NCBI GenBank assembly: GCA_038209745.1
Contig: JBBQXJ010000014.1
Coordinates: forward strand, 1-64,000
DNA length: 64,000 nucleotides
Source: Verrucomicrobiota bacterium
GTDB lineage: Bacteria; Verrucomicrobiota; Verrucomicrobiia; Limisphaerales; CANJSG01
Reading direction: 5' to 3'
In this document: in pieces, positions 12,532 through 18,798 of the stretch
Layout: every line of letters begins with the position of its first letter
Position numbering within the stretch: position 1 is the stretch's first letter
The notes under the pieces: generated by a model
What the model was told of the DNA's origin: nothing
Seen by the model: only the letters and a program-made list of their open reading frames with translations
Database searches by the model: none
Position numbers and translations under genes: made by a program

Positions 12532-12915
12532 TTACTCGGTCGGTTTGTTTGTCAATTGAACCAGACATTCCGAAGTGTTGGTCCAGTAGGTCGTAGTGGC
12601 ATTTACTTCGTTGGTTCGTCCTAGAACCAGCGCAACATACTTTTCATAGACATTGTCTTCAGGCCCATTGACCAACCGCTTCAGCCGGAACGAGGCCGAG
12701 GAAATGAATGGGGATCGCAGCCGCCCCCGCCGCCGGACCCGGACGCGTCCGGACATACGAGGCGGGGAATCGTTTCCTGCGGCTCCGATGAACCGCGAGG
12801 GCGCGGCCCACTGCGCCCGGGGCGGGCGCGCTCCCCCATCCCCGTTCCGGCTTAGTGCGAGGGCTGCCGCGAAAAGCGCACTGACAGCCAAACCAATCTT
12901 GGCGAAGGCTTTCAT
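12532..12915 (-). CDS. Small exported hypothetical protein carrying an in-frame repeat insertion (possibly a relic)
   Basis: Signal-like N-terminus MKAFAKIGLAVSALFAAALAL. The central part is the dispersed repeat at 12684-12851. Flanks are lower in GC. Confidence 0.4.
   Translation of the reverse strand: MKAFAKIGLAVSALFAAALALSRNGDGGARPPRAQWAAPSRFIGAAGNDSPPRMSGRVRVRRRGRLRSPFISSASFRLKRLVNGPEDNVYEKYVALVLGRTNEVNATTTYWTNTSECLVQLTNKPTE
12684..12851. repeat. Dispersed palindromic MITE/REP-like repeat, copy A
   Basis: Terminal IR gccggaacg / cgttccggc with flanks tca / tta. Core gaaatgaatggggatcgcagccgccc...ctgcgcccggggcgggcg(c/t)gctcccc is shared with copy B. Confidence 0.85.
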
Positions 12916-12959
12916 GGTAATTCAGCCGCACCCGCACTGATTGATCCGACACAAGAAGC

Positions 12960-13111
12960 CCGAAGTGGCATCCCACCGCAGCTTTCACCATCACATGCAA
13001 TTCCTCCACCGAATCAGCCTGGGTGAAGATGTCGTGGCCCAACGGCTGGGCGCTGTAGCCGCCGTCCACTTCGTCCTCGCGGACCTCAAAGATGATCTCG
13101 GAAGCGGTCAT
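12960..13111 (-). pseudogene. HicB-like antitoxin fragment without a cognate toxin
   Basis: MTASEIIFEVREDEVDGGYSAQPLGHDIFTQADSVEELHVMVKAAVGCHF fits the short HicB-like pattern. The frame then runs on into unrelated sequence (track ORF ends at 12659). No hicA nearby. Confidence 0.6.
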
Positions 13112-13151
13112 GGTCGGAGATGGGTCCCCGCTACCGGGACCCGTCAAAGCC

Positions 13152-14420
13152 TCACAGGAACATCGTCTGGTCGCGGCCGGGGCCGACGGAGGCGATGGAG
13201 AGCTTGGCCCCGGTGAGCTCCGCGACGGCCTTCAGGTAGGCCCGGCACTTGGCGGGGAGCTTCTTGTATTCGGTGATCTTCTCGGTGGGCGTCTTCCAAC
13301 CGTCGAAGTCGGCATAGATCGGCTCCACGCGGCCGAGGTCTTCCAGATCGCTCGGGAGGTGGTCGATGTGTTTGCCGTCGAGCTTGTAGCTCAGGACCAG
13401 CCGGATGTTCTCGAGGCTGTCGAGGCCGTCGATGTTGGTGATGGCGAGTTCATCGATGCCGTTGACCATCGTGGCGTGGCGGGTCACGACGGTGTCGAGC
13501 CAGCCGCAACGGCGGGCGCGTCCAGTGGTGGAGCCATATTCACGGCCCATGCCGTGGAGCATGTCGGAAATCTCCTGGCTCTCGCTGGGGAAGGGGCCTT
13601 CGCCGACGCGGGTGGTGTAGGCCTTCATCACGCCGACCACCCGGTCCATGCGATGGGGAGGGACGCCGGATCCGGTGCAGGCGCCGCCGGCGGTGGTGTT
13701 CGACGAAGTGACGTAGGGATAGGTGCCGTGGTCGATGTCGAGGAACGTGCCTTGCGCGCCTTCGAAGAGGATGTCCTTGCCCTGCTGCATGGCCTTGTGG
13801 AGCAACACGACGGTGTTGGTCACGTAGGGCGCGAGACGATCGCCGGCGGCACGGTAGGCGTCGTGGACCTTCTTGTAGGAAAGGGGGATGGCTCCGAGGG
13901 CCTTGAGGACGGCGTTGTTCTCCTTGATCCGTTCCTTGAGCTTGGCGGCGAAGCGATCGGGCTTGATCAGGTCGATCATGCGGAGGCCGACGCGGGCGAC
14001 TTTGTCGCCGTAGGCCGGGCCAATGCCGCGCTTCGTGGTGCCGATCTTGTTCTTGCCCTTGAGCGCTTCGCGCTGGGCGTCGAGCTCGCGGTGATAGGGG
14101 AACACGATGTGGGCCGTCTCGCTGATGTAGAACTTGCCGCCGACCTTGATGCCGAGCTTCTCCAGACCGTCGAGCTCAGCGACGAGCGCCACGGGATCGA
14201 TGACGACGCCGTTGCCGACGACGTTGGTCTTGCCCTTCCAGAGGATGCCGGAGGGGATGAGGTGGAGGACGTATTTGGTCTTGCCGACCCAGACAGTGTG
14301 GCCGGCGTTGTTGCCGCCCTGGGTCCGGACCACGACGTCGGCCTGTTCGGTCAGGACGTCGATGATCTTTCCTTTGCCTTCGTCGCCCCATTGGGCGCCG
14401 ACGAGAATCGTGTTGGCCAT
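13152..14420 (-). CDS. purA: Adenylosuccinate synthetase
   Basis: GAQWGDEGKGK, QGGNNAGHT, GTTKRGIGPAY, FEGAQG...DHGTYPYVTSS and TTGRARRCGW. Start MANTILVG at 14420. Confidence 0.98.
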   Translation of the reverse strand: MANTILVGAQWGDEGKGKIIDVLTEQADVVVRTQGGNNAGHTVWVGKTKYVLHLIPSGILWKGKTNVVGNGVVIDPVALVAELDGLEKLGIKVGGKFYISETAHIVFPYHRELDAQREALKGKNKIGTTKRGIGPAYGDKVARVGLRMIDLIKPDRFAAKLKERIKENNAVLKALGAIPLSYKKVHDAYRAAGDRLAPYVTNTVVLLHKAMQQGKDILFEGAQGTFLDIDHGTYPYVTSSNTTAGGACTGSGVPPHRMDRVVGVMKAYTTRVGEGPFPSESQEISDMLHGMGREYGSTTGRARRCGWLDTVVTRHATMVNGIDELAITNIDGLDSLENIRLVLSYKLDGKHIDHLPSDLEDLGRVEPIYADFDGWKTPTEKITEYKKLPAKCRAYLKAVAELTGAKLSIASVGPGRDQTMFL

Positions 14421-14467
14421 AAATTGAATCGAAATCGCGGGACTCACCCGCGGCGACTCCGGACAGC

Positions 14468-14491
14468 AAAAAACCCCGAGCAAATCGGGGT
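14468..14491 (-). terminator. Intrinsic terminator inside the purA 5' leader (attenuator-like)
   Basis: Minus strand ACCCCGA-TTTGC-TCGGGGT followed by TTTTT, ending about 48 nt upstream of the purA ATG, with no gene upstream on that strand for it to terminate. Confidence 0.75.
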
Positions 14492-14514
14492 GTGCGACCG
14501 GTCTTTGCGGCGGG

Positions 14515-14544
14515 ACGTTAGAGACCATGGCTCCGGGGTGTCAA
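14515..14544 (-). promoter_or_regulatory. Sigma-70-type promoter for purA
   Basis: TTGACA (14544-14539), 18 nt, TAACGT (14520-14515). Predicted +1 near G14508. Confidence 0.65.
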
Positions 14545-14617
14545 ACCGGAAGGTCGGAATCCCAACTATCCGGCACGTCCTGTTTGACGCTGGAAAGGAA
14601 AGGCGGACAGTTCCTGC

Positions 14618-15100
14618 ATGAAAACGGTGCTCCTATTTCTCGTGCTGGCCGGGGCGGTCGCCTCGGGGGCCGAACAGACCAACGGCCCGGTCGCCGTGAC
14701 GGTCCCGGTCCCGGTCCAGCCCAGCCCGTCCACCGAGGTTCCAAAAGCGGCTGTCGCGGAGGCTCCATCCCCCGGTCCGATTGGCTTGGTTGCGGCGCCG
14801 GTCGCACGGAGTGCGGCTTCCATGCCCCTGACGCCTGAGAACCTCCCGAAGATCGAGCCCAAGATCCCGGTCGAGGGAATCGAGGGGCGGCATGTAAACT
14901 ACACGGGTGTGGTTCCGCGCGTCGTGAAAGCGGATGGAATCCAAGGGGTGCTCCATCTCTTCAATCCTTTCGCCCCGTTGAGCCCGGCGGAGAAGCACTG
15001 GGCGGTGGCGGTAAGGGATCGGCCGGCTCCCCGGGGATTCGTGGACGACACCAAGCTGGAACCGGTCGGCATCACGCTGATCTCGGTCGAGACCAAGTGA
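14618..15100 (+). CDS. Secreted hypothetical protein
   Basis: Signal peptide MKTVLLFLVLAGAVASGA, Pro-rich linker, C-terminal LFNPFAP motif. Confidence 0.7.
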   Translation: MKTVLLFLVLAGAVASGAEQTNGPVAVTVPVPVQPSPSTEVPKAAVAEAPSPGPIGLVAAPVARSAASMPLTPENLPKIEPKIPVEGIEGRHVNYTGVVPRVVKADGIQGVLHLFNPFAPLSPAEKHWAVAVRDRPAPRGFVDDTKLEPVGITLISVETK

Positions 15101-15158
15101 ATCGACCCGGAGGATCGCAGAGCGGGTTCGTTAGTTGGCGCTGAAAGACGCGGGGGGG

Positions 15159-16700
15159 TCACTTGATCGCCTTACGCGGCGTCTGGGCAGCGGGTCCTTG
15201 TCCGTAGGCGGTGGGTTCGTCGTCTTTGGGAACTTTCAACTCTGCGCGGAGGCGGACGATCTCGGCCTTCAGCTTTTCGACCGTGGCAGCGTTTTCGGGA
15301 AGGCCCGCGACGTCGCGCAGTTCATTCGGATCCGACTGCCGGTCGAACAGCTGCCAATCGTCCACGTCCGGCGTGTAGAAGTGGACCAGTTTGTAGCGGT
15401 CGGTCACGACTCCGTAGTGGGGGTGGACGTGGTGCGGTTGGGGGTATTCGTAGTAATGGTAGTAGAAGCTCGTCCGCCAATCCTTCGGTGTTTCTCCTCT
15501 GAGGATCGGCACGAGGCTCTTGCCCTGCATGTCGCCCGGGATCGGAAGATGCGCGGCGTCGAGGAAGGTCTCGGCGAAGTCCAGATTGGAAACGATGTCG
15601 CGGCTTTGGCTGCCGGGCTTGGTGACTCCCGGCCACCGAACGATCAGCGGCGTGCGGAGCGATTCCTCGAAGATCCAACGCTTGTCGAACCAGCCGTGCT
15701 CTCCGAGGTAGAAGCCCTGGTCGGCGGAATAGATGACGATGGTGTTGTCGGCGAGCCCCTCGTCGTCGAGATATTTGAGGATCTGCCCGACGCTCTCGTC
15801 CACGGAGCGGATGCAGCCGAGGTAGTCGTGGAGGTAGCGGTTGTATTTCCAACGGACGAGGTCTTTGCCGGTGAGATGGGCATTGGTGAAGGCTTCGTTG
15901 CGGGGTCCGTAGTAGGCGTCCCATTCCTTGCGCTGCTCTGCCGTCAGACGCGGGGGCGGGGTCTGTTTGAGGTCCTTCGGGGTCATCGTCTTTTCGATGG
16001 TCATGTCCTGGTCGCGCACGACCTTGCTCCGGTTCGCGTAGTCGTCGAAGAGCGTTTCCGGCTCCGGGTATTTCCGGTCGTTGTCATGGCCGAGATGGCG
16101 GAGGGCGGGTTCCCATTCGCGGTGCGGCGCCTTGTGCTGCGCCATCAGGAGAAAGGGCTTCGATTTGTCGCGGTGCTTCAGCCAATCGAGCGAACGCTCG
16201 GTGATGATGTCGGTGACGTAGCCCTCGGTCGCCACTCGGGTGCCGTTCCGGATCATGGGCGGATTGTAGTAGGCGCCCTGGCCCGGAAGGATGTCCCAGT
16301 AGTCGAAACCGGTGGGATCGGAGACCAGATGCCATTTGCCGATGATCGCGGTCTGGTAGCCGCCGGCCTGGAGGAGCTTGGCGACGGTCTGTTGGGAACC
16401 GTCGAAGCGGCTGTTCGAATTGTTGTAGAAGCCGTTCAGATGATTGTATTTCCCGGTGAGGATCGTGGCGCGGCTGGGGCCGCAGATGGAATTCGGCACG
16501 ACGCAGCGCTGGAAGAGCATCCCCTCCTTGGCGATCCGGTCGATGTTCGGCGTCTCGATCAGCTTGCGCGGGTCGTGGTAGGCGCCGATCGCCTGATACG
16601 CGTGGTCGTCCGAGAAGATGAAGACGATGTTCGGGCGCTGGGTGGCCGCCGAGACTGTGGCTGTGGTCAACGCGACGGCGAGGAACGGGAGAATTTTCAT
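15159..16700 (-). CDS. Sulfatase (N-acetylglucosamine-6-sulfatase-like)
   Basis: RPNIVFIFSDDH, CGPSRATILTG (formylglycine motif), GKWHL and DQGFYLGEHGWFDKR. Start at 16700 or 16712. Confidence 0.93.
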   Translation of the reverse strand: MKILPFLAVALTTATVSAATQRPNIVFIFSDDHAYQAIGAYHDPRKLIETPNIDRIAKEGMLFQRCVVPNSICGPSRATILTGKYNHLNGFYNNSNSRFDGSQQTVAKLLQAGGYQTAIIGKWHLVSDPTGFDYWDILPGQGAYYNPPMIRNGTRVATEGYVTDIITERSLDWLKHRDKSKPFLLMAQHKAPHREWEPALRHLGHDNDRKYPEPETLFDDYANRSKVVRDQDMTIEKTMTPKDLKQTPPPRLTAEQRKEWDAYYGPRNEAFTNAHLTGKDLVRWKYNRYLHDYLGCIRSVDESVGQILKYLDDEGLADNTIVIYSADQGFYLGEHGWFDKRWIFEESLRTPLIVRWPGVTKPGSQSRDIVSNLDFAETFLDAAHLPIPGDMQGKSLVPILRGETPKDWRTSFYYHYYEYPQPHHVHPHYGVVTDRYKLVHFYTPDVDDWQLFDRQSDPNELRDVAGLPENAATVEKLKAEIVRLRAELKVPKDDEPTAYGQGPAAQTPRKAIK

Positions 16701-16731
16701 GGGCAGTTTCATCGGATCCGAGGCGGCTCGA

Positions 16732-18798
16732 TCATTGGAAGGTGCAGAACGCGGTCGAGGGAACGGCTTGCAGCGGAATGTCGGGACCGCTGTATTCCAG
16801 CCGGAGGACCGGGGCTCCCCCGACATGCCGGTAGAACAGGCGGAACGGATGCAGTCCTGCCTTCAGGCGGACGCTGCCGGTGCGGACGGATCCGTCATGG
16901 CCGAAGTCGTCGTCGATCACCAGCGCTTCATGCAGACGCAGCGTGGCGCCCGCATCGGAGCGGAGCTGGAAGGTATATTCTCCTTCGGTCGGGGCGATGA
17001 ACCAGCCGCTGAAGCGCAGGCCGAAGTTGTTAGTCTTTCCGGTCTTGGCAACGTCCAGAGCCGGCATCGAGGTGGTGCGGGTGGGAGTCAACGCGTCGAA
17101 GTCGGGCACCCACGGCCATTGGCCTTCATAGACCGCCACATCGATCTGGTTGGCGAGCGGGGCCGAAACGGGCACCGCCGGAATCGCTTCTTGGTCGTAG
17201 GGTCGCGGCGCGCCGGCGTCGGGGCGGCGCATCCCGAGCACGGCATCCTTCATCTGCTGCTGCAGCTCCGGGCGTTTCGCCGCGAGATCGGTCGTCTCTT
17301 TGGGATCATGGACGATGTCGTAGATCTCGAAGTCGTCCTTGTGGGAGACGACGTTGTAGCGGACGCCGATGAAATCGCCGAGACGGATGGCCTGCATCTG
17401 GCGGCGGCGCCGGCCGCGATGAGCGGTCTCGAAGGCGCGGTAGTCCGGGGTTTTCCCGCCTTCGAAGTATTCGACGTAGATATTGGGACGACGTTGGGCG
17501 CCGTGTCCGGTGAGCGTTGGCACCAGCGAACGTCCGTCGGTTCGGGCGGGCGGGGGCACACCCGCGAGTTCGGCGAAGGTCGGCAGCCAATCCCAGGAGC
17601 CCGAGGGCAGGGAGCTGGTGGATCCGGCACGAACGCCACCCGGCCAACGCACCAGGGCGCCGACCCGGACGCCGCCTTCCCAGCAGTCGCGCTTGATGCC
17701 GTCGAACGGTCCGAACGAACCGAAGAACGTGGGTTCGTAGTTTTCGGGCAGATACGATTCGCGGCTGGGGCCGTTGTCCGAGGTGAAGACGACGAGGGTG
17801 TTCTGGTCGATCTGGAGATCCTTCAGCAACTGCACGAGATCGCCGACGCAATGGTCGATCCGACGGACATCGGTGGCGTGGCGCTTGAAGACATCGGGCC
17901 AAGGCTGCTCCGGGGTGGCGGGGTCATGGTCGTGATCCCAAGTGGCGGTCGCGTAGGCGGGATCGGTCCAGCCATCGACCGTGCCGGTGGCCGTATTGAT
18001 CATGTGGCCCGGTTGACCGAGCCATTGCAGACCGCCGTTGGTGCCCCCGCCATCGGGATAGGCGCAGGGAGGGAGCTGGAGCTTGGCATGCGGGGTGTCG
18101 AAGGCGAGATACAGGAAGAAGGGCTGCTGCGGTTTCGTGCGGACTCGGTCGGTGATCCAGTGCTTGGCCCGCGCGGTGAACAGGTCGGTGGTGTAGCATT
18201 TGTCGAGGTCGGCGGCGACGTTGCGGCGGTTCTCCCAGACCTCCTTGCCGTCTTCTTTGGGATAGTGGGCGTGACCGTCGACGTGGCGGATGTAGCCGTA
18301 ATAGTCGTCGAACCCGCGCTCCAGCGGATGGGCCGGCCAGGCTGGCGGGGCGTCGGTCTTGCCCTGAAGTCCCCACTTGCCAATCGCGGCGGTGGCGTAG
18401 CCGGCTTTCCTGAGAACCGACGCCAGGGTGTGGTTGTTCTCCAGCGCCTTGTCGAACTGGTTGTCGCGCACATTGGCGTGGCCCTGGGTGACGCCGAGCA
18501 ACAGCGAGGCGCGTGAGGGCGCGCAGACGGGCGCGGCGCAATAGTGATGAGGCAGCTCCATGCCCTCTTTCGCAAACGCGTCGATCTGCGGAGTCAGGTG
18601 CCAAGGCTGGGACCGGTCGCCCTGCTCGCGGCGCAGGTTCTGGTGGAAGACGCCCAGATCTCCGAAGCCAAGGTCGTCGCAAAGTATGAAGACGATGTTC
18701 GGTCGGGGCGCCTCAGCGGCCCGCATCGAACCAATGCCCAACACACTGAAGGCGAAGGAAAGGAGGCAAACTTGGCAGAACAGGCGATCTTGCTTCAT
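16732..18798 (-). CDS. Arylsulfatase-family protein with C-terminal PA14 domain
   Basis: RPNIVFILCDDLG, CAPSRASLLLG and FTSDNGP; PA14-like tail FGLRFSGWFIAPTEGEYTFQLRSDAG...GLHPFRL. Confidence 0.9.
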   Translation of the reverse strand: MKQDRLFCQVCLLSFAFSVLGIGSMRAAEAPRPNIVFILCDDLGFGDLGVFHQNLRREQGDRSQPWHLTPQIDAFAKEGMELPHHYCAAPVCAPSRASLLLGVTQGHANVRDNQFDKALENNHTLASVLRKAGYATAAIGKWGLQGKTDAPPAWPAHPLERGFDDYYGYIRHVDGHAHYPKEDGKEVWENRRNVAADLDKCYTTDLFTARAKHWITDRVRTKPQQPFFLYLAFDTPHAKLQLPPCAYPDGGGTNGGLQWLGQPGHMINTATGTVDGWTDPAYATATWDHDHDPATPEQPWPDVFKRHATDVRRIDHCVGDLVQLLKDLQIDQNTLVVFTSDNGPSRESYLPENYEPTFFGSFGPFDGIKRDCWEGGVRVGALVRWPGGVRAGSTSSLPSGSWDWLPTFAELAGVPPPARTDGRSLVPTLTGHGAQRRPNIYVEYFEGGKTPDYRAFETAHRGRRRRQMQAIRLGDFIGVRYNVVSHKDDFEIYDIVHDPKETTDLAAKRPELQQQMKDAVLGMRRPDAGAPRPYDQEAIPAVPVSAPLANQIDVAVYEGQWPWVPDFDALTPTRTTSMPALDVAKTGKTNNFGLRFSGWFIAPTEGEYTFQLRSDAGATLRLHEALVIDDDFGHDGSVRTGSVRLKAGLHPFRLFYRHVGGAPVLRLEYSGPDIPLQAVPSTAFCTFQ

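What the first reader, a model, noticed from the sequence alone, without database searches (positions are those of the whole stretch)
14421..14544. Candidate undescribed nucleotide-sensing attenuator in the purA leader
Seen: TTGACA-18-TAACGT promoter on the minus strand, giving a predicted transcript 5'-GCAAAGACCGGUCGCAC-ACCCCGA-UUUGC-UCGGGGU-UUUUU. The terminator ends only about 41 nt after +1. Its loop (UUUGC) is the exact complement of the first five nucleotides (GCAAA), and a self-complementary GACCGGUC lies between them. A second hairpin (CGCGGG-UGAGU-CCCGCG, 14436-14452) precedes the ATG. Established: PurA uses GTP to commit IMP to AMP; short NTP-sensing leaders work by start-site choice or reiterative transcription (B. 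subtilis pyrG; E. coli pyrBI, pyrC, codBA). Inference: 5'-end/loop pairing or slippage on the A run could couple termination to the ATP/GTP balance, or this could be a very compact riboswitch. I do not recognise it as the purine, ZTP or ykkC/PRPP classes.
Basis: partly seen in the sequence, partly recalled or inferred. Interest (0 to 1): 0.75.

Follow-up and report, generated by a model that had tools for sequence, protein, structure and literature searches.

The report
Conserved purA leader attenuator RNA
In front of the purA gene, which commits IMP to AMP synthesis, sits a short structured leader RNA with its own promoter and a built-in terminator; it is conserved across a whole order of Verrucomicrobia and is probably an undescribed on/off valve for adenine nucleotide synthesis.

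Summary
The promoter is TTGACA-18-TAACGT. The predicted start G lies exactly 6 nt after the -10. A strong intrinsic terminator ends at +41. The first five transcript bases are complementary to the terminator loop.

A covariance model of the leader hits 106 of 151 genomes sampled from the same order, almost always once per genome. purA lies directly downstream in 87 of 90 fetched hits. The own genome has no second copy. Nothing in Rfam 15 reaches threshold, and five literature searches found no description.

The 5'-end helix (P1) covaries: position 2 is U:A or C:G. It exists in two layouts. Its 3' strand lies in the terminator loop in 63 leaders and immediately 5' of the terminator stem in 28.

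I found no conserved unpaired pocket and no conserved leader peptide.

Best reading: a purA-specific transcription attenuator controlled through its 5'-terminal helix, possibly by start-nucleotide choice (GTP versus ATP). The structure is shown. Attenuation, the signal and its sign are inferred.

The parts
14539..14544 (-). -35 hexamer TTGACA
   Evidence: Conserved as TTGACA or a near-variant in the promoter position counts of 91 leaders.
14515..14520 (-). -10 hexamer TAACGT (TAnnnT)
   Evidence: In 91 leaders, T-12 is kept in 88, A-11 in 91 and T-7 in 90.
14509..14514 (-). 6-nt discriminator CCCGCC between the -10 and +1
   Evidence: The spacing is exactly 6 nt in 26 of 30 loci. Position -5 is G in only 4 of 91 leaders, although G makes up 0.318 of the genome.
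14503..14508 (-). Predicted +1 G and the 5' strand of helix P1 (GCAAAG)
   Evidence: G1 is kept in 91 of 91 leaders and A3-A5 in 91 of 91. Position 2 is C or U and covaries with its partner.
14492..14502 (-). Linker, also the 5' strand of the optional helix P0 (ACCGGUCGCAC)
   Evidence: The linker is 9-13 nt long in variant a. It is complementary to the sequence just after the U tract.
14485..14491 (-). Terminator stem, 5' strand (ACCCCGA)
   Evidence: CCCCG is invariant in 63 of 63 variant a leaders and near-invariant in variant b.
14480..14484 (-). Terminator loop, also the 3' strand of P1 (UUUGC)
   Evidence: Exact complement of nt 1-5. Covariation: U:A 50 and C:G 8 at pair 2.
14473..14479 (-). 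Terminator stem, 3' strand (UCGGGGU)
   Evidence: The hairpin folds at -11.0 kcal/mol.
14468..14472 (-). U tract of the terminator, ending at +41
   Evidence: U is kept at 56-63 of 63 leaders at the five tract positions.
14458..14469 (-). 3' strand of the optional helix P0 (UUGCUGUCCGGA), which can form only after read-through
   Evidence: Duplex of -10.9 kcal/mol with the linker. The same pairing appears in the minimum-energy fold.
14436..14452 (-). Second hairpin CGCGGG-UGAGU-CCCGCG. It is not conserved and is not counted as part of the element.
13152..14420 (-). purA (adenylosuccinate synthetase), the regulated gene
   Evidence: PF00709, E 4.6e-177.

Best explanation
SHOWN. A dedicated sigma-70-type promoter places the transcript start at a fixed G. 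The first six nucleotides (G-Y-A-A-A-K) form a covarying helix, P1. Its partner strand is contiguous with the 5' strand of a nearly sequence-invariant intrinsic terminator T (CCCCGAA...UUCGGGG-UUUUU). That partner lies either in the terminator loop (variant a, as in this window) or immediately 5' of the stem (variant b). T ends about 45 nt after +1, ahead of purA. The element occurs once per genome and only at purA.

INFERRED. It is a transcription attenuator. Most polymerases stop at T unless something changes how T folds. P1 is the only alternative pairing available at the moment of decision.

MOST LIKELY MECHANISM (hypothesis). The signal is read at the 5' end of the RNA. Transcripts that start with GTP at G1 can form P1. 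Transcripts that start two bases later with ATP at A3 cannot. P1 then interferes with T in one of two ways. In variant b it competes with the stem's bottom C:G pair next to the U tract. In variant a it closes a hairpin around the terminator's 5' strand. On this reading a high GTP/ATP ratio gives read-through and more PurA.

The sign is not settled. P1 could instead stack on T and help termination.

My odds:
- About 0.8 that this is a purA-specific cis-regulatory attenuator.
- About 0.35 that its input is the initiating nucleotide or 5' end.
- 0.4 overall for the statement as written.
For: Conservation and specificity:
- Model R1 hits 106 of 151 genomes of the order at E<=0.01. 104 of these have one hit and 2 have two.
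- Outside the order, only 5 of 150 sampled genomes of the phylum have weak hits, at E 0.001-0.009.
- The own genome has one hit at 50 bits. The next best scores 21 bits at E 0.37.
- 87 of 90 fetched hits in the order have the purA N-terminus directly downstream.

Fixed start:
- The -10 to G spacing is exactly 6 nt in 26 of 30 loci.
- G1 and A3-A5 are kept in 91 of 91 leaders.

P1 covariation:
- Over 93 parsed leaders, pair 1 is G:C in 93. Pair 2 is U:A in 56, C:G in 35 and mismatched in 2, one of which is a parsing error.
- Tool counts for variant a: pair 2 is UA 50 and CG 8, and 0 of 500 shuffles reach the observed covariation score.
- Tool counts for variant b: pair 2 is CG 23 and UA 3; pair 6 is GC 19, CG 2 and UA 2; 0 of 500 shuffles reach the score.
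- A C:G versus U:A switch lies inside one genus, in a clade with 99% support.
- A sister family has GCAAC/GUUGC, which adds covariation at position 5.

Dependence on the 5' end, in the nascent RNA just before the terminator's 3' strand emerges:
- With a G1 start, the predicted P1 probability is 0.85 in variant a and 0.91 in variant b.
- With an A3 start, it falls to 0.13 and 0.29.

Competition with T in variant b:
- The bottom C:G pair of T has a median predicted probability of 0.52 with a G1 start and 0.99 with an A3 start.
- The base below that pair is mostly a G.A mismatch (17 of 28), which leaves the G free for P1.

Timing in variant a:
- The linker can pair with the sequence just after the U tract (helix P0). 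Own pairs average -9.33 kcal/mol against -8.00 for cross-species pairs, and 0 of 5000 permutations are as low.
- By geometry P0 and P1 exclude each other (inference). P1 would then matter only during the termination decision.

Terminator strength:
- T folds at a mean of -12.7 kcal/mol over 91 leaders.
- It is followed by five U's.
Against: - There is no experimental start site, 3' end or read-through measurement. The RNA data that could be laid do not cover the leader.
- P1 is weak beside T. Its duplex energy is -2.1 (variant a) or -4.6 (variant b) kcal/mol, against -12.7 for T. At equilibrium it could not prevent T, so any effect must be kinetic or need a helper.
- In variant a, P1 removes only the top A:U pair of T. 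A compact pseudoknot in which P1 stacks on T looks sterically possible, which would make P1 neutral or pro-termination.
- P1's partner can sit in two places. That also fits a role as a mere cap for the 5' end.
- Only 2 of the 6 P1 pairs covary within the order. The U:A to C:G change can pass through wobble intermediates. The tree used to count independent events is poorly resolved, with 85 columns and 54 of 86 inner branches open.
- Pyrimidine at -1 of G1 is found in only 56 of 91 leaders.
- The terminator stem sequence is nearly invariant. A purely structural model does not explain that, and it hints at a sequence-specific partner.
- Physiological logic does not fix the sign. By recall, E. 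coli PurR represses purA when guanine or hypoxanthine is plentiful.
Confidence: 0.4

Rival explanations
1. Protein-mediated (or trans-RNA-mediated) attenuation. A purine-responsive RNA-binding factor recognises the invariant terminator hairpin, with P1 as an accessory. It either stabilises or prevents the hairpin, in the way PyrR or TRAP act on their leaders.
For: - The terminator stem is nearly invariant in sequence across more than 80 families. CCCCG is kept in 63 of 63 variant a leaders, and the GGGG run is kept in 63 of 63 variant a and 28 of 28 variant b leaders. Pairing alone would not require this.
- The stem is kept even in leaders that have lost P1, such as L022, L128-L130 and L132.
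- P1 alone is too weak to outcompete T.
Against: - No candidate factor was found.
- The only ORF directly downstream of purA looks, by eye, like an antitoxin. It recurs in only 2 other genomes: 4 of the 132 loci searched, beyond the window's own three, and those 4 are duplicate fetches of G003 and G008.
- No gene neighbour is conserved. The upstream genes differ between genomes.
- A factor that binds one hairpin in one copy per genome is possible, but nothing here supports it.
Confidence: 0.2
2. A constitutive 5' structure. P1 plus T simply buries the 5' end of the purA mRNA and protects it from 5'-end-dependent decay, and perhaps insulates purA from upstream transcription. The terminator is leaky and unregulated.
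For: - P1 starts exactly at the predicted +1, so no nucleotide at the 5' end is left unpaired. By recall, this is the hallmark of 5' stabiliser hairpins.
- The partner of the 5' end can sit in the loop or on the flank. That fits any arrangement that caps the end.
Against: - In variant a the read-through RNA can form P0, which is stronger than P1 and by geometry excludes it. P1 would then not persist in the mature mRNA.
- A stabiliser needs no U tract, yet five U's are kept in nearly all leaders.
- An unregulated strong terminator (-12.7 kcal/mol) 45 nt after a near-consensus promoter would only waste transcription.
- The element is found at one gene only.
Confidence: 0.15
3. A minimal riboswitch. 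A small ligand such as a purine nucleotide, IMP, ppGpp or PRPP binds at the P1/T junction and shifts termination.
For: - The leader is conserved and structured, and it covaries, ahead of a metabolic gene. It has a built-in terminator and no leader peptide: 64 of 91 leaders contain no ATG before the end of the U tract.
- Very small terminator-embedded or pseudoknot aptamers are known (recalled: HMP-PP, preQ1-I).
Against: - No Rfam family reaches its gathering score, either in the window or in 10 relatives' leaders.
- The two layouts differ in topology, one a loop pseudoknot and the other an adjacent hairpin.
- In variant b both loops vary freely.
- In variant a the conserved linker bases are accounted for by pairing in P0.
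- The only conserved unpaired positions are A7 and the U tract.
Confidence: 0.1
4. The roughly 45-nt terminated product is itself the functional unit, a small stable RNA. purA read-through is incidental.
For: - The promoter, a compact fold with both ends structured, and a U tail are all conserved.
- Weak sub-threshold resemblance to terminator-bearing sRNA models: anti-hemB at 18.7-24.6 bits against a gathering score of 49.5.
Against: - The element always lies directly upstream of purA on the same strand (87 of 90). purA has no other recognisable promoter between T and the ATG. In several genomes the ATG follows the U tract within about 10 nt.
- No target complementarity is known.
Confidence: 0.05

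Closest known systems
Start-site switching at E. coli/Salmonella pyrC and pyrD. The details are recalled. The general statement that Gram-negative pyr genes are controlled by premature termination, start-site changes and reiterative transcription is in passages of PMC13328217.
   Same: - Fixed geometry between the -10 and alternative start nucleotides two positions apart.
- A 5'-terminal hairpin forms only in the longer transcript.
- No protein or ligand other than NTPs is needed.
   Different: - There the hairpin hides the ribosome-binding site and the CTP/GTP ratio is sensed.
- Here the helix is tied to an intrinsic terminator, the gene is purA, and the candidate pair is GTP (G1) against ATP (A3).
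- Alternative starts have not been mapped here.
B. subtilis pyrG reiterative-transcription antitermination. Recalled. Shin et al. 2020 (PMC7039003) was seen only as an entry in the reference list of PMC13328217.
   Same: - A very short leader.
- The extreme 5' end of the nascent RNA pairs with the terminator region and so decides termination.
   Different: - In pyrG the pairing bases are extra G's added by slippage when CTP is low, and they pair with the terminator's 5' strand.
- Here the pairing bases are encoded in the genome. They pair with the loop or with the flank of the terminator.
- The A run shrinks to two A's in a sister family.
Initiating-NTP- and ppGpp-sensitive promoters of the rRNA P1 type (recalled)
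   Same: - A near-consensus -35, a weak -10 and a GC-rich discriminator.
- G is depleted two bases after the -10 (4 of 91 leaders).
- An invariant purine start.
   Different: Those promoters carry no downstream terminator and no 5'-end helix. The kinetics of this promoter are unknown.
Terminator-embedded or pseudoknot mini-riboswitches (HMP-PP/thiS, preQ1-I; recalled)
   Same: - Size of about 45 nt.
- The sensing element overlaps the terminator.
- In variant a, a tail pairs with a loop to form a pseudoknot.
   Different: - No conserved pocket.
- Two non-equivalent topologies.
- No Rfam match.
PyrR- or TRAP-type protein-dependent attenuators (recalled)
   Same: A sequence-conserved hairpin in a biosynthetic leader that controls a terminator.
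   Different: No classical antiterminator/anti-antiterminator pair, no repeated binding triplets, and no candidate protein identified.

Membership tests
Intrinsic (Rho-independent) terminator | GC-rich stem of at least 5 bp with a short loop | tested here: met
   The stem has 7 pairs (5 G-C) and the loop is 5 nt. It folds at -11.0 kcal/mol, with a family mean of -12.7.
Intrinsic (Rho-independent) terminator | A run of U immediately 3' of the stem | tested here: met
   Six U's in the window. U is kept at 56-63 of 63 leaders at five consecutive positions.
Intrinsic (Rho-independent) terminator | Transcripts actually end there | not testable with these tools
   The RNA runs found hold only contigs of relatives' purA coding sequence. 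None covers the leader.
Transcription attenuator (leader terminator) | Own promoter upstream and a terminator between +1 and the regulated gene | tested here: met
   Promoter geometry is conserved in 26 of 30 loci. purA lies directly downstream in 87 of 90 hits.
Transcription attenuator (leader terminator) | An alternative structure that competes with, or modulates, the terminator | tested here: inconclusive
   P1 is supported by covariation and is predicted to form before the 3' strand of T emerges. It overlaps T by only 1-2 nt and is much weaker than T.
Transcription attenuator (leader terminator) | Read-through changes with a physiological signal | not testable with these tools
   Needs experiments.
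Start-site-switch or reiterative-transcription control (pyrC, pyrG, codBA type) | Fixed spacing from the -10 to alternative start nucleotides | tested here: met
   Exactly 6 nt to G1 in 26 of 30 loci. Y2-A3 is present in 91 of 91 leaders.
Start-site-switch or reiterative-transcription control (pyrC, pyrG, codBA type) | A 5' structure that depends on which nucleotide starts the RNA | tested here: met
   The predicted P1 probability is 0.85 (variant a) and 0.91 (variant b) with a G1 start, against 0.13 and 0.29 with an A3 start. This is a prediction only.
Start-site-switch or reiterative-transcription control (pyrC, pyrG, codBA type) | A homopolymer run of at least 3 in the initially transcribed region (needed for slippage) | tested here: inconclusive
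   AAA is present in 91 of 91 leaders of the order. A sister family keeps the architecture with GCAAC or GCAAU.
Start-site-switch or reiterative-transcription control (pyrC, pyrG, codBA type) | Mapped alternative 5' ends, or extra untemplated bases, that respond to NTP pools | not testable with these tools
   No usable RNA data.
Known riboswitch classes (Rfam 15: purine, ZTP, ykkC/PRPP, preQ1 and all others) | A covariance-model match at the family's gathering score | tested here: not met
   0 matches at gathering in the 64-kb window. In the leader the only matches have E>=0.65. Nothing comes near gathering in 10 relatives' leaders.
Riboswitch in general | Conserved unpaired nucleotides that could form a ligand pocket, in one conserved topology | tested here: not met
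   There are two topologies. The loops vary in variant b. The linker conservation in variant a is explained by P0.
Ribosome-mediated (leader-peptide) attenuation | A conserved short ORF that starts before the terminator | tested here: not met
   64 of 91 leaders have no ATG between +1 and the end of the U tract. The window has none.
Palindromic DNA operator of a dimeric repressor (LacI/PurR type) | Two inverted half-sites at a fixed, close spacing | tested here: not met
   The GYAAA and UUURC halves are about 19-21 nt apart in variant a and about 8-9 nt apart in variant b.

The most novel reading that the evidence does not exclude
A purine-nucleotide-sensing attenuator that needs no protein and no ligand pocket. 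RNA polymerase starts at G1 with GTP, or two bases later at A3 with ATP. Only the GTP-initiated RNA can close the 5'-terminal helix P1, which shifts the fold of a terminator 40 nt downstream. The GTP/ATP ratio would then directly set how much adenylosuccinate synthetase is made. As far as I know, this would be the first start-site-switch control of a purine gene and the first that is coupled to termination rather than translation.
Probability: 0.27. Interest if true: 0.85.

Novelty: new variant of a known kind. Interest (0 to 1): 0.66.

Why it matters
PurA sits at the IMP branch point and spends GTP to make AMP. How bacteria outside the model phyla balance the A and G pools at the level of transcription is largely unknown.

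This element is a clean candidate for experiments. It is about 45 nt long, occurs once per genome and only at purA, and is found in roughly 70% of the sampled genomes of a large, mostly uncultured order of Verrucomicrobiota. Public records that share the motif are labelled Limisphaerales or Pedosphaera. It comes in two natural layouts that already act as structural swap mutants.

If the 5'-end model holds, NTP-sensing logic known so far from pyrimidine genes would extend to purines. It would also give a minimal, portable GTP/ATP-responsive part. If a protein or ligand turns out to be the sensor, that would be a new regulator class. Either way the motif deserves a covariance-model entry in RNA family databases.

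Tried and rejected
- Repeat or mobile element: rejected. The 140-nt leader matches only itself in the genome.
- Regulon beyond purA in the own genome: none found. With R1 the next best hit is an ordinary terminator after a stop codon, at 21 bits. A relaxed scan for a promoter followed by a nearby terminator gave 5 candidates, and only purA has a consensus promoter. A broader terminator-before-ORF list (86 rows of 524 terminator-like sites) is mostly made of ordinary terminators and was not informative.
- guaB leader: nothing similar.
- RNA evidence: 21 runs were listed and all hold small shares, 0.14 at most. Four were laid. Their contigs are 85-95% alike, cover only purA coding sequence and stop at or before the ATG. 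There is no cover at 14440-14700. No conclusion can be drawn.
- RNAalifold on 62 extended leaders recovered only 3 invariant terminator pairs, because MAFFT mis-registers the loops and the downstream part. I used explicit per-sequence parsing and the pair-counting tool instead.
- PurA tree for counting independent covariation events: it has too few columns (85) and the careful search did not finish, so only the quick tree was used.
- Pairing of the 5' end with the U tract plus the next bases: in the window UUUGC recurs right after the U run, but the purine after the U tract does not covary with position 2 across the family. Rejected as a general feature.
- Classical antiterminator made of the linker and the terminator 3' strand: I saw at most 3 complementary bases by eye.
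- Cis-encoded regulator: beyond the window's own three loci, the ORF downstream of purA recurs in 4 of the 132 loci searched. Rejected.
- Literature: five searches found nothing on this motif. They were purA + riboswitch + Verrucomicrobia; reiterative transcription + purA; adenylosuccinate synthetase + attenuator + leader + terminator; 'purA motif'; and Limisphaerales + riboswitch. Subscription-only papers are not covered.
Full report
WHAT IS IN THE WINDOW. Read on the minus strand, the stretch 14544-14421 holds the following, in order.
- TTGACA at 14544-14539, then 18 nt, then TAACGT at 14520-14515.
- Six bases (CCCGCC), then G14508, taken as +1.
- From +1 the RNA reads GCAAAG, then an 11-nt linker (ACCGGUCGCAC).
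- A hairpin ACCCCGA-UUUGC-UCGGGGU at 14491-14473, followed by U's to 14468 (+41).
- A second hairpin at 14452-14436.
- The purA ATG at 14420.

The loop UUUGC is the exact complement of nucleotides 1-5. The ORF is adenylosuccinate synthetase (PF00709, E 4.6e-177). The tool's own terminator scan reports both hairpins, while its promoter scan reports no site in 13000-16000.

IS IT MORE THAN CHANCE?
- The leader is single-copy in the genome.
- TTGACA-N17/18-TAnnnT occurs only five times in 4.58 Mb, counting both strands.
- A scan for such a promoter with a perfect terminator within 75 nt of the predicted start returns one site, this one.
- A relaxed version returns five, and only purA has a consensus promoter.

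CONSERVATION.
- purA was found in 41 of 41 relatives.
- In the 30 loci fetched, 28 carry G-Y-A-A-A, a linker of about 11-13 nt, (G/A)CCCCGA(A), a short loop, (U)UCGGGG and a U run.
- 26 of 30 fit the strict pattern -35 / 17-18 nt / TAnnnT / exactly 6 nt / GYAAA.
- I built a covariance model from 28 of these leaders, with only the terminator stem as structure (R1).
- R1 hits 106 of 151 genomes sampled evenly from the order at E<=0.01. 104 have one hit and two have two.
- Among genomes at least 90% complete the count is 77 of 110.
- In 150 other genomes of the phylum it finds only 5 weak matches, at E 0.001-0.009.
- In the own genome it finds only the purA leader, at 50 bits. The runner-up scores 21 bits and is an ordinary terminator after a stop codon.
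- Of the 90 loci fetched from the order's hits, 87 have the purA N-terminus directly downstream. Two of the others are cut by contig ends, and one is a second, weaker hit in front of a different gene.

An exact-pattern scan of one genome per 185,579 species gave 93 stretches, of which 80 were listed.
- 65 have purA downstream on the same strand, and 64 of these also matched my GYAAA pattern upstream.
- 2 more are cut by contig ends.
- All of these carry Verrucomicrobia, Limisphaerales or Pedosphaera labels, apart from a few labels that look wrong.
- The remaining 13, from Bacteroidota, Clostridia and others, are plain terminators preceded by A-rich sequence, with no purA.

The element is therefore a purA-specific feature of one large order.

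A homologous but diverged form exists in a sister family of the same class. It has the same promoter and spacing. The start is GCAAC or GCAAU, paired with GUUGC or UUGC immediately 5' of a CCCCG/CGGGG terminator. It appears in 5 of the 23 loci examined from outside the order. Another family has a very short leader with no hairpin.

ANATOMY OF THE FAMILY. I parsed 93 distinct leaders. Two were set aside for later counts: L098, where my parser picked the wrong start, and L129, which has no P1. That leaves 91.

Promoter:
- A-11 is kept in 91 of 91, T-12 in 88 and T-7 in 90.
- C follows the -10 in 77.
- The position two bases after the -10 is G in only 4 of 91, although G makes up 0.318 of the genome.

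RNA:
- G1 is kept in 91 of 91 and A3-A5 in 91 of 91.
- Position 2 is always C or U.
- CCCCG is invariant in all 63 variant a leaders and in 27 of 28 variant b leaders. GGGG is invariant in all 91.
- Five U's follow the stem.
- The stem ends 38-41 nt after +1 in most leaders.
- The terminator hairpin averages -12.7 kcal/mol, with a range of -15.1 to -9.8.

THE 5'-END HELIX P1. The first six bases pair with a complement that sits in one of two places.
- Variant a: inside the terminator loop, directly after the stem's 5' strand. This covers 65 parsed leaders, 63 of them used, including the window.
- Variant b: immediately before the stem's 5' strand, sharing its first one or two bases. This covers 28 leaders.

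In both variants the P1 3' strand and the terminator 5' strand form one continuous run of 12-13 nt.

Covariation:
- Pair 1 is G:C in 93 of 93.
- Pair 2 is U:A in 56 and C:G in 35, with 2 mismatches, one of them the parsing error.
- Pair-counting tool, variant a: pair 2 is UA 50 and CG 8. Two more C:G rows, the window and L002, are mis-registered by MAFFT and fall among the rows the tool did not score as pairs. 0 of 500 shuffles reach the observed covariation score, and every slid control is lower.
- Pair-counting tool, variant b: pair 2 is CG 23 and UA 3. Pair 6 is GC 19, CG 2, UA 2 and GU 1. Again 0 of 500 shuffles reach the score.
- All four combinations exist (U:A or C:G, in the loop or on the flank), and all are matched.

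Independence of events is only partly shown.
- A tree from 85 PurA columns is poorly resolved and came from the quick search.
- The C:G/U:A switch does fall inside one well-supported genus clade, with the window and L002 on one side and L003, L004 and L007 on the other.
- Changes between the loop and flank layouts occur within three families (f18, f27, f76).
- Transitional forms exist. L009 carries both partners. L228 has the flank partner plus a relict loop partner.
- The sister family adds a C:G at position 5.

The three central A:U pairs never vary within the order.

A THIRD HELIX, P0, IN VARIANT A. The conserved part of the linker (positions 8-14) is complementary to the sequence that begins just after UUUUURUUG.
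- The sequences differ between species but match within each one. Examples are ACCGUGC/GCACGGU, ACCGGCAG/CUGCCGGU, CGCGCCG/CGGCGCG and GCGUGG/CCACGC.
- Own linker-downstream duplexes average -9.33 kcal/mol, against -8.00 for cross-species pairs. 0 of 5000 permutations are as low.
- The own partner's median rank is only 15 of 62, so this is a tendency and not a universal feature.
- Variant b shows no signal (543 of 5000 permutations as low).
- In the window, P0 is CCGG/CCGG plus four further pairs (-10.9 kcal/mol). It also appears in the minimum-energy fold.

P0 can form only after read-through. If the linker is locked in P0, the 6-nt 5' tail cannot reach the terminator loop. This is an inference from geometry. 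It means P1 is relevant mainly during the termination decision and in the terminated product.

WHAT IT IS NOT.
- Not a known RNA family. There are no Rfam 15 matches at gathering in the window. In the leader the only matches have E>=0.65. In ten relatives' leaders nothing comes near gathering, and the best relevant hit is a terminator-bearing sRNA model at 24.6 bits against 49.5.
- Not a leader-peptide attenuator. 64 of 91 leaders have no ATG before the end of the U tract.
- Not a palindromic operator. The two half-sites are about 20 nt apart in one layout and about 8 nt apart in the other.
- Unlikely to be a ligand-binding riboswitch. The two layouts differ in topology, the loops of variant b vary freely, and the linker conservation in variant a is explained by P0. 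That leaves A7 and the U tract as the only conserved unpaired bases.

HOW IT MOST LIKELY WORKS. A near-consensus promoter followed 45 nt later by a strong terminator, kept in front of one biosynthetic gene across more than 80 families, is best read as an attenuator. This is an inference. The only alternative pairing available while the polymerase is at the U tract is P1, and P1 is anchored to the very first transcribed base.

Nearest-neighbour predictions:
- In the nascent RNA just before the terminator's 3' strand emerges, P1 forms with probability 0.85 (variant a) or 0.91 (variant b) when the RNA starts at G1.
- When the RNA starts at A3, the probability is 0.13 or 0.29.
- In variant b, G1 competes with the last G of the terminator for the same C. 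The terminator's bottom pair, next to the U tract, has a median probability of 0.52 with a G1 start and 0.99 with an A3 start.
- The base below that pair is mostly a G.A mismatch, which reserves that G for P1 (17 of 28).

The invariant G1, the always-pyrimidine position 2 followed by A3, the exact spacing from the -10, and the G-poor discriminator all fit control by the initiating nucleotide. The same logic is known for pyrimidine genes. pyrC, pyrG and codBA are recalled. The general statement is in passages of the review PMC13328217.

On this model a high GTP/ATP ratio favours G1 starts, P1 forms, the terminator is weakened, and more PurA is made. That suits an enzyme which spends GTP to make AMP.

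I put about 0.8 on a purA-specific attenuator and about 0.35 on this input.

WEAK POINTS.
- P1 is far weaker than T, at -2.1 or -4.6 against -12.7 kcal/mol.
- In variant a, P1 overlaps only the top A:U pair of T. A compact pseudoknot in which P1 stacks on T seems possible, so P1 might instead help termination.
- The near-invariance of the stem sequence suggests a sequence-specific partner.
- The movable P1 partner also fits a simple 5'-end cap.
- No RNA data cover the leader. The runs found hold only relatives' purA coding contigs.

NOVELTY. Five full-text searches found no description of this motif. Subscription-only literature was not searchable. Two earlier notes of this scan describe purA leaders in Chloroflexota as translated attenuators. 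They concern different, longer leaders and were not tested here. I class this element as a new variant of a known kind: a leader attenuator, possibly NTP-sensing.

Noticed in passing
G000 contig C50, about 13240-13300 (locus L135), and relatives L140-L159: guaA, the ATP-dependent branch enzyme, has its own conserved upstream element in many genomes of the order: TTTTTCTCTCGCCAAA, about 17 nt, then GGCAAACAC, lying about 25-30 nt before the ATG. It also contains a GCAAA-type word. It looks unlike a sigma-70 promoter and has no terminator.
   Followed up: partly
window 14466-14470 (minus strand): UUUGC, the complement of the 5' GCAAA, occurs a second time directly after the U run. L002 and a few other leaders show the same, but this does not covary across the family. 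One genome of another family (L267) pairs a 5' GGCAA with UUGCC after its U run.
   Followed up: partly
locus L122 (second R1 hit in G028), about 340-420: Similar architecture ahead of a different gene: GCAAAU, 16 nt, a CCCUGAG/CUCAGGG terminator, then UUUUUUAUUGCC. The ORF downstream looks, by eye, like a PLP-dependent threonine dehydratase. There is no complement to the 5' end in the loop.
   Followed up: no
window 12659-13147 (minus strand): The ORF just downstream of purA has no Pfam hit for the full 162-aa reading. From an internal ATG it reads, by eye, like a HicB-type antitoxin N-terminus. It recurs next to purA in only two other genomes, G003 and G008.
   Followed up: partly
window 14618-15100 (plus strand): An ORF divergent from purA begins with a signal-peptide-like MKTVLLFLVLAGAVASG and has no Pfam family. 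On the minus strand, the next clear gene upstream of purA is a sulfatase at 15159-16826.
   Followed up: no
loci L262-L264, L270, L271 (same class, other order): A diverged homologue of the purA leader, with P1 as GCAAC/GUUGC or GCAACC/GGUUGC on the flank of a CCCCG/CGGGG terminator. Model R1 probably misses such forms, so the element may be older than the order.
   Followed up: partly
G000 contig C60, minus strand (row): A second candidate promoter-proximal terminator: TTGACG-18-TAGCTT, an 11-bp stem and eight U's, 110 nt before a 301-aa ORF. The ORF was not annotated.
   Followed up: no
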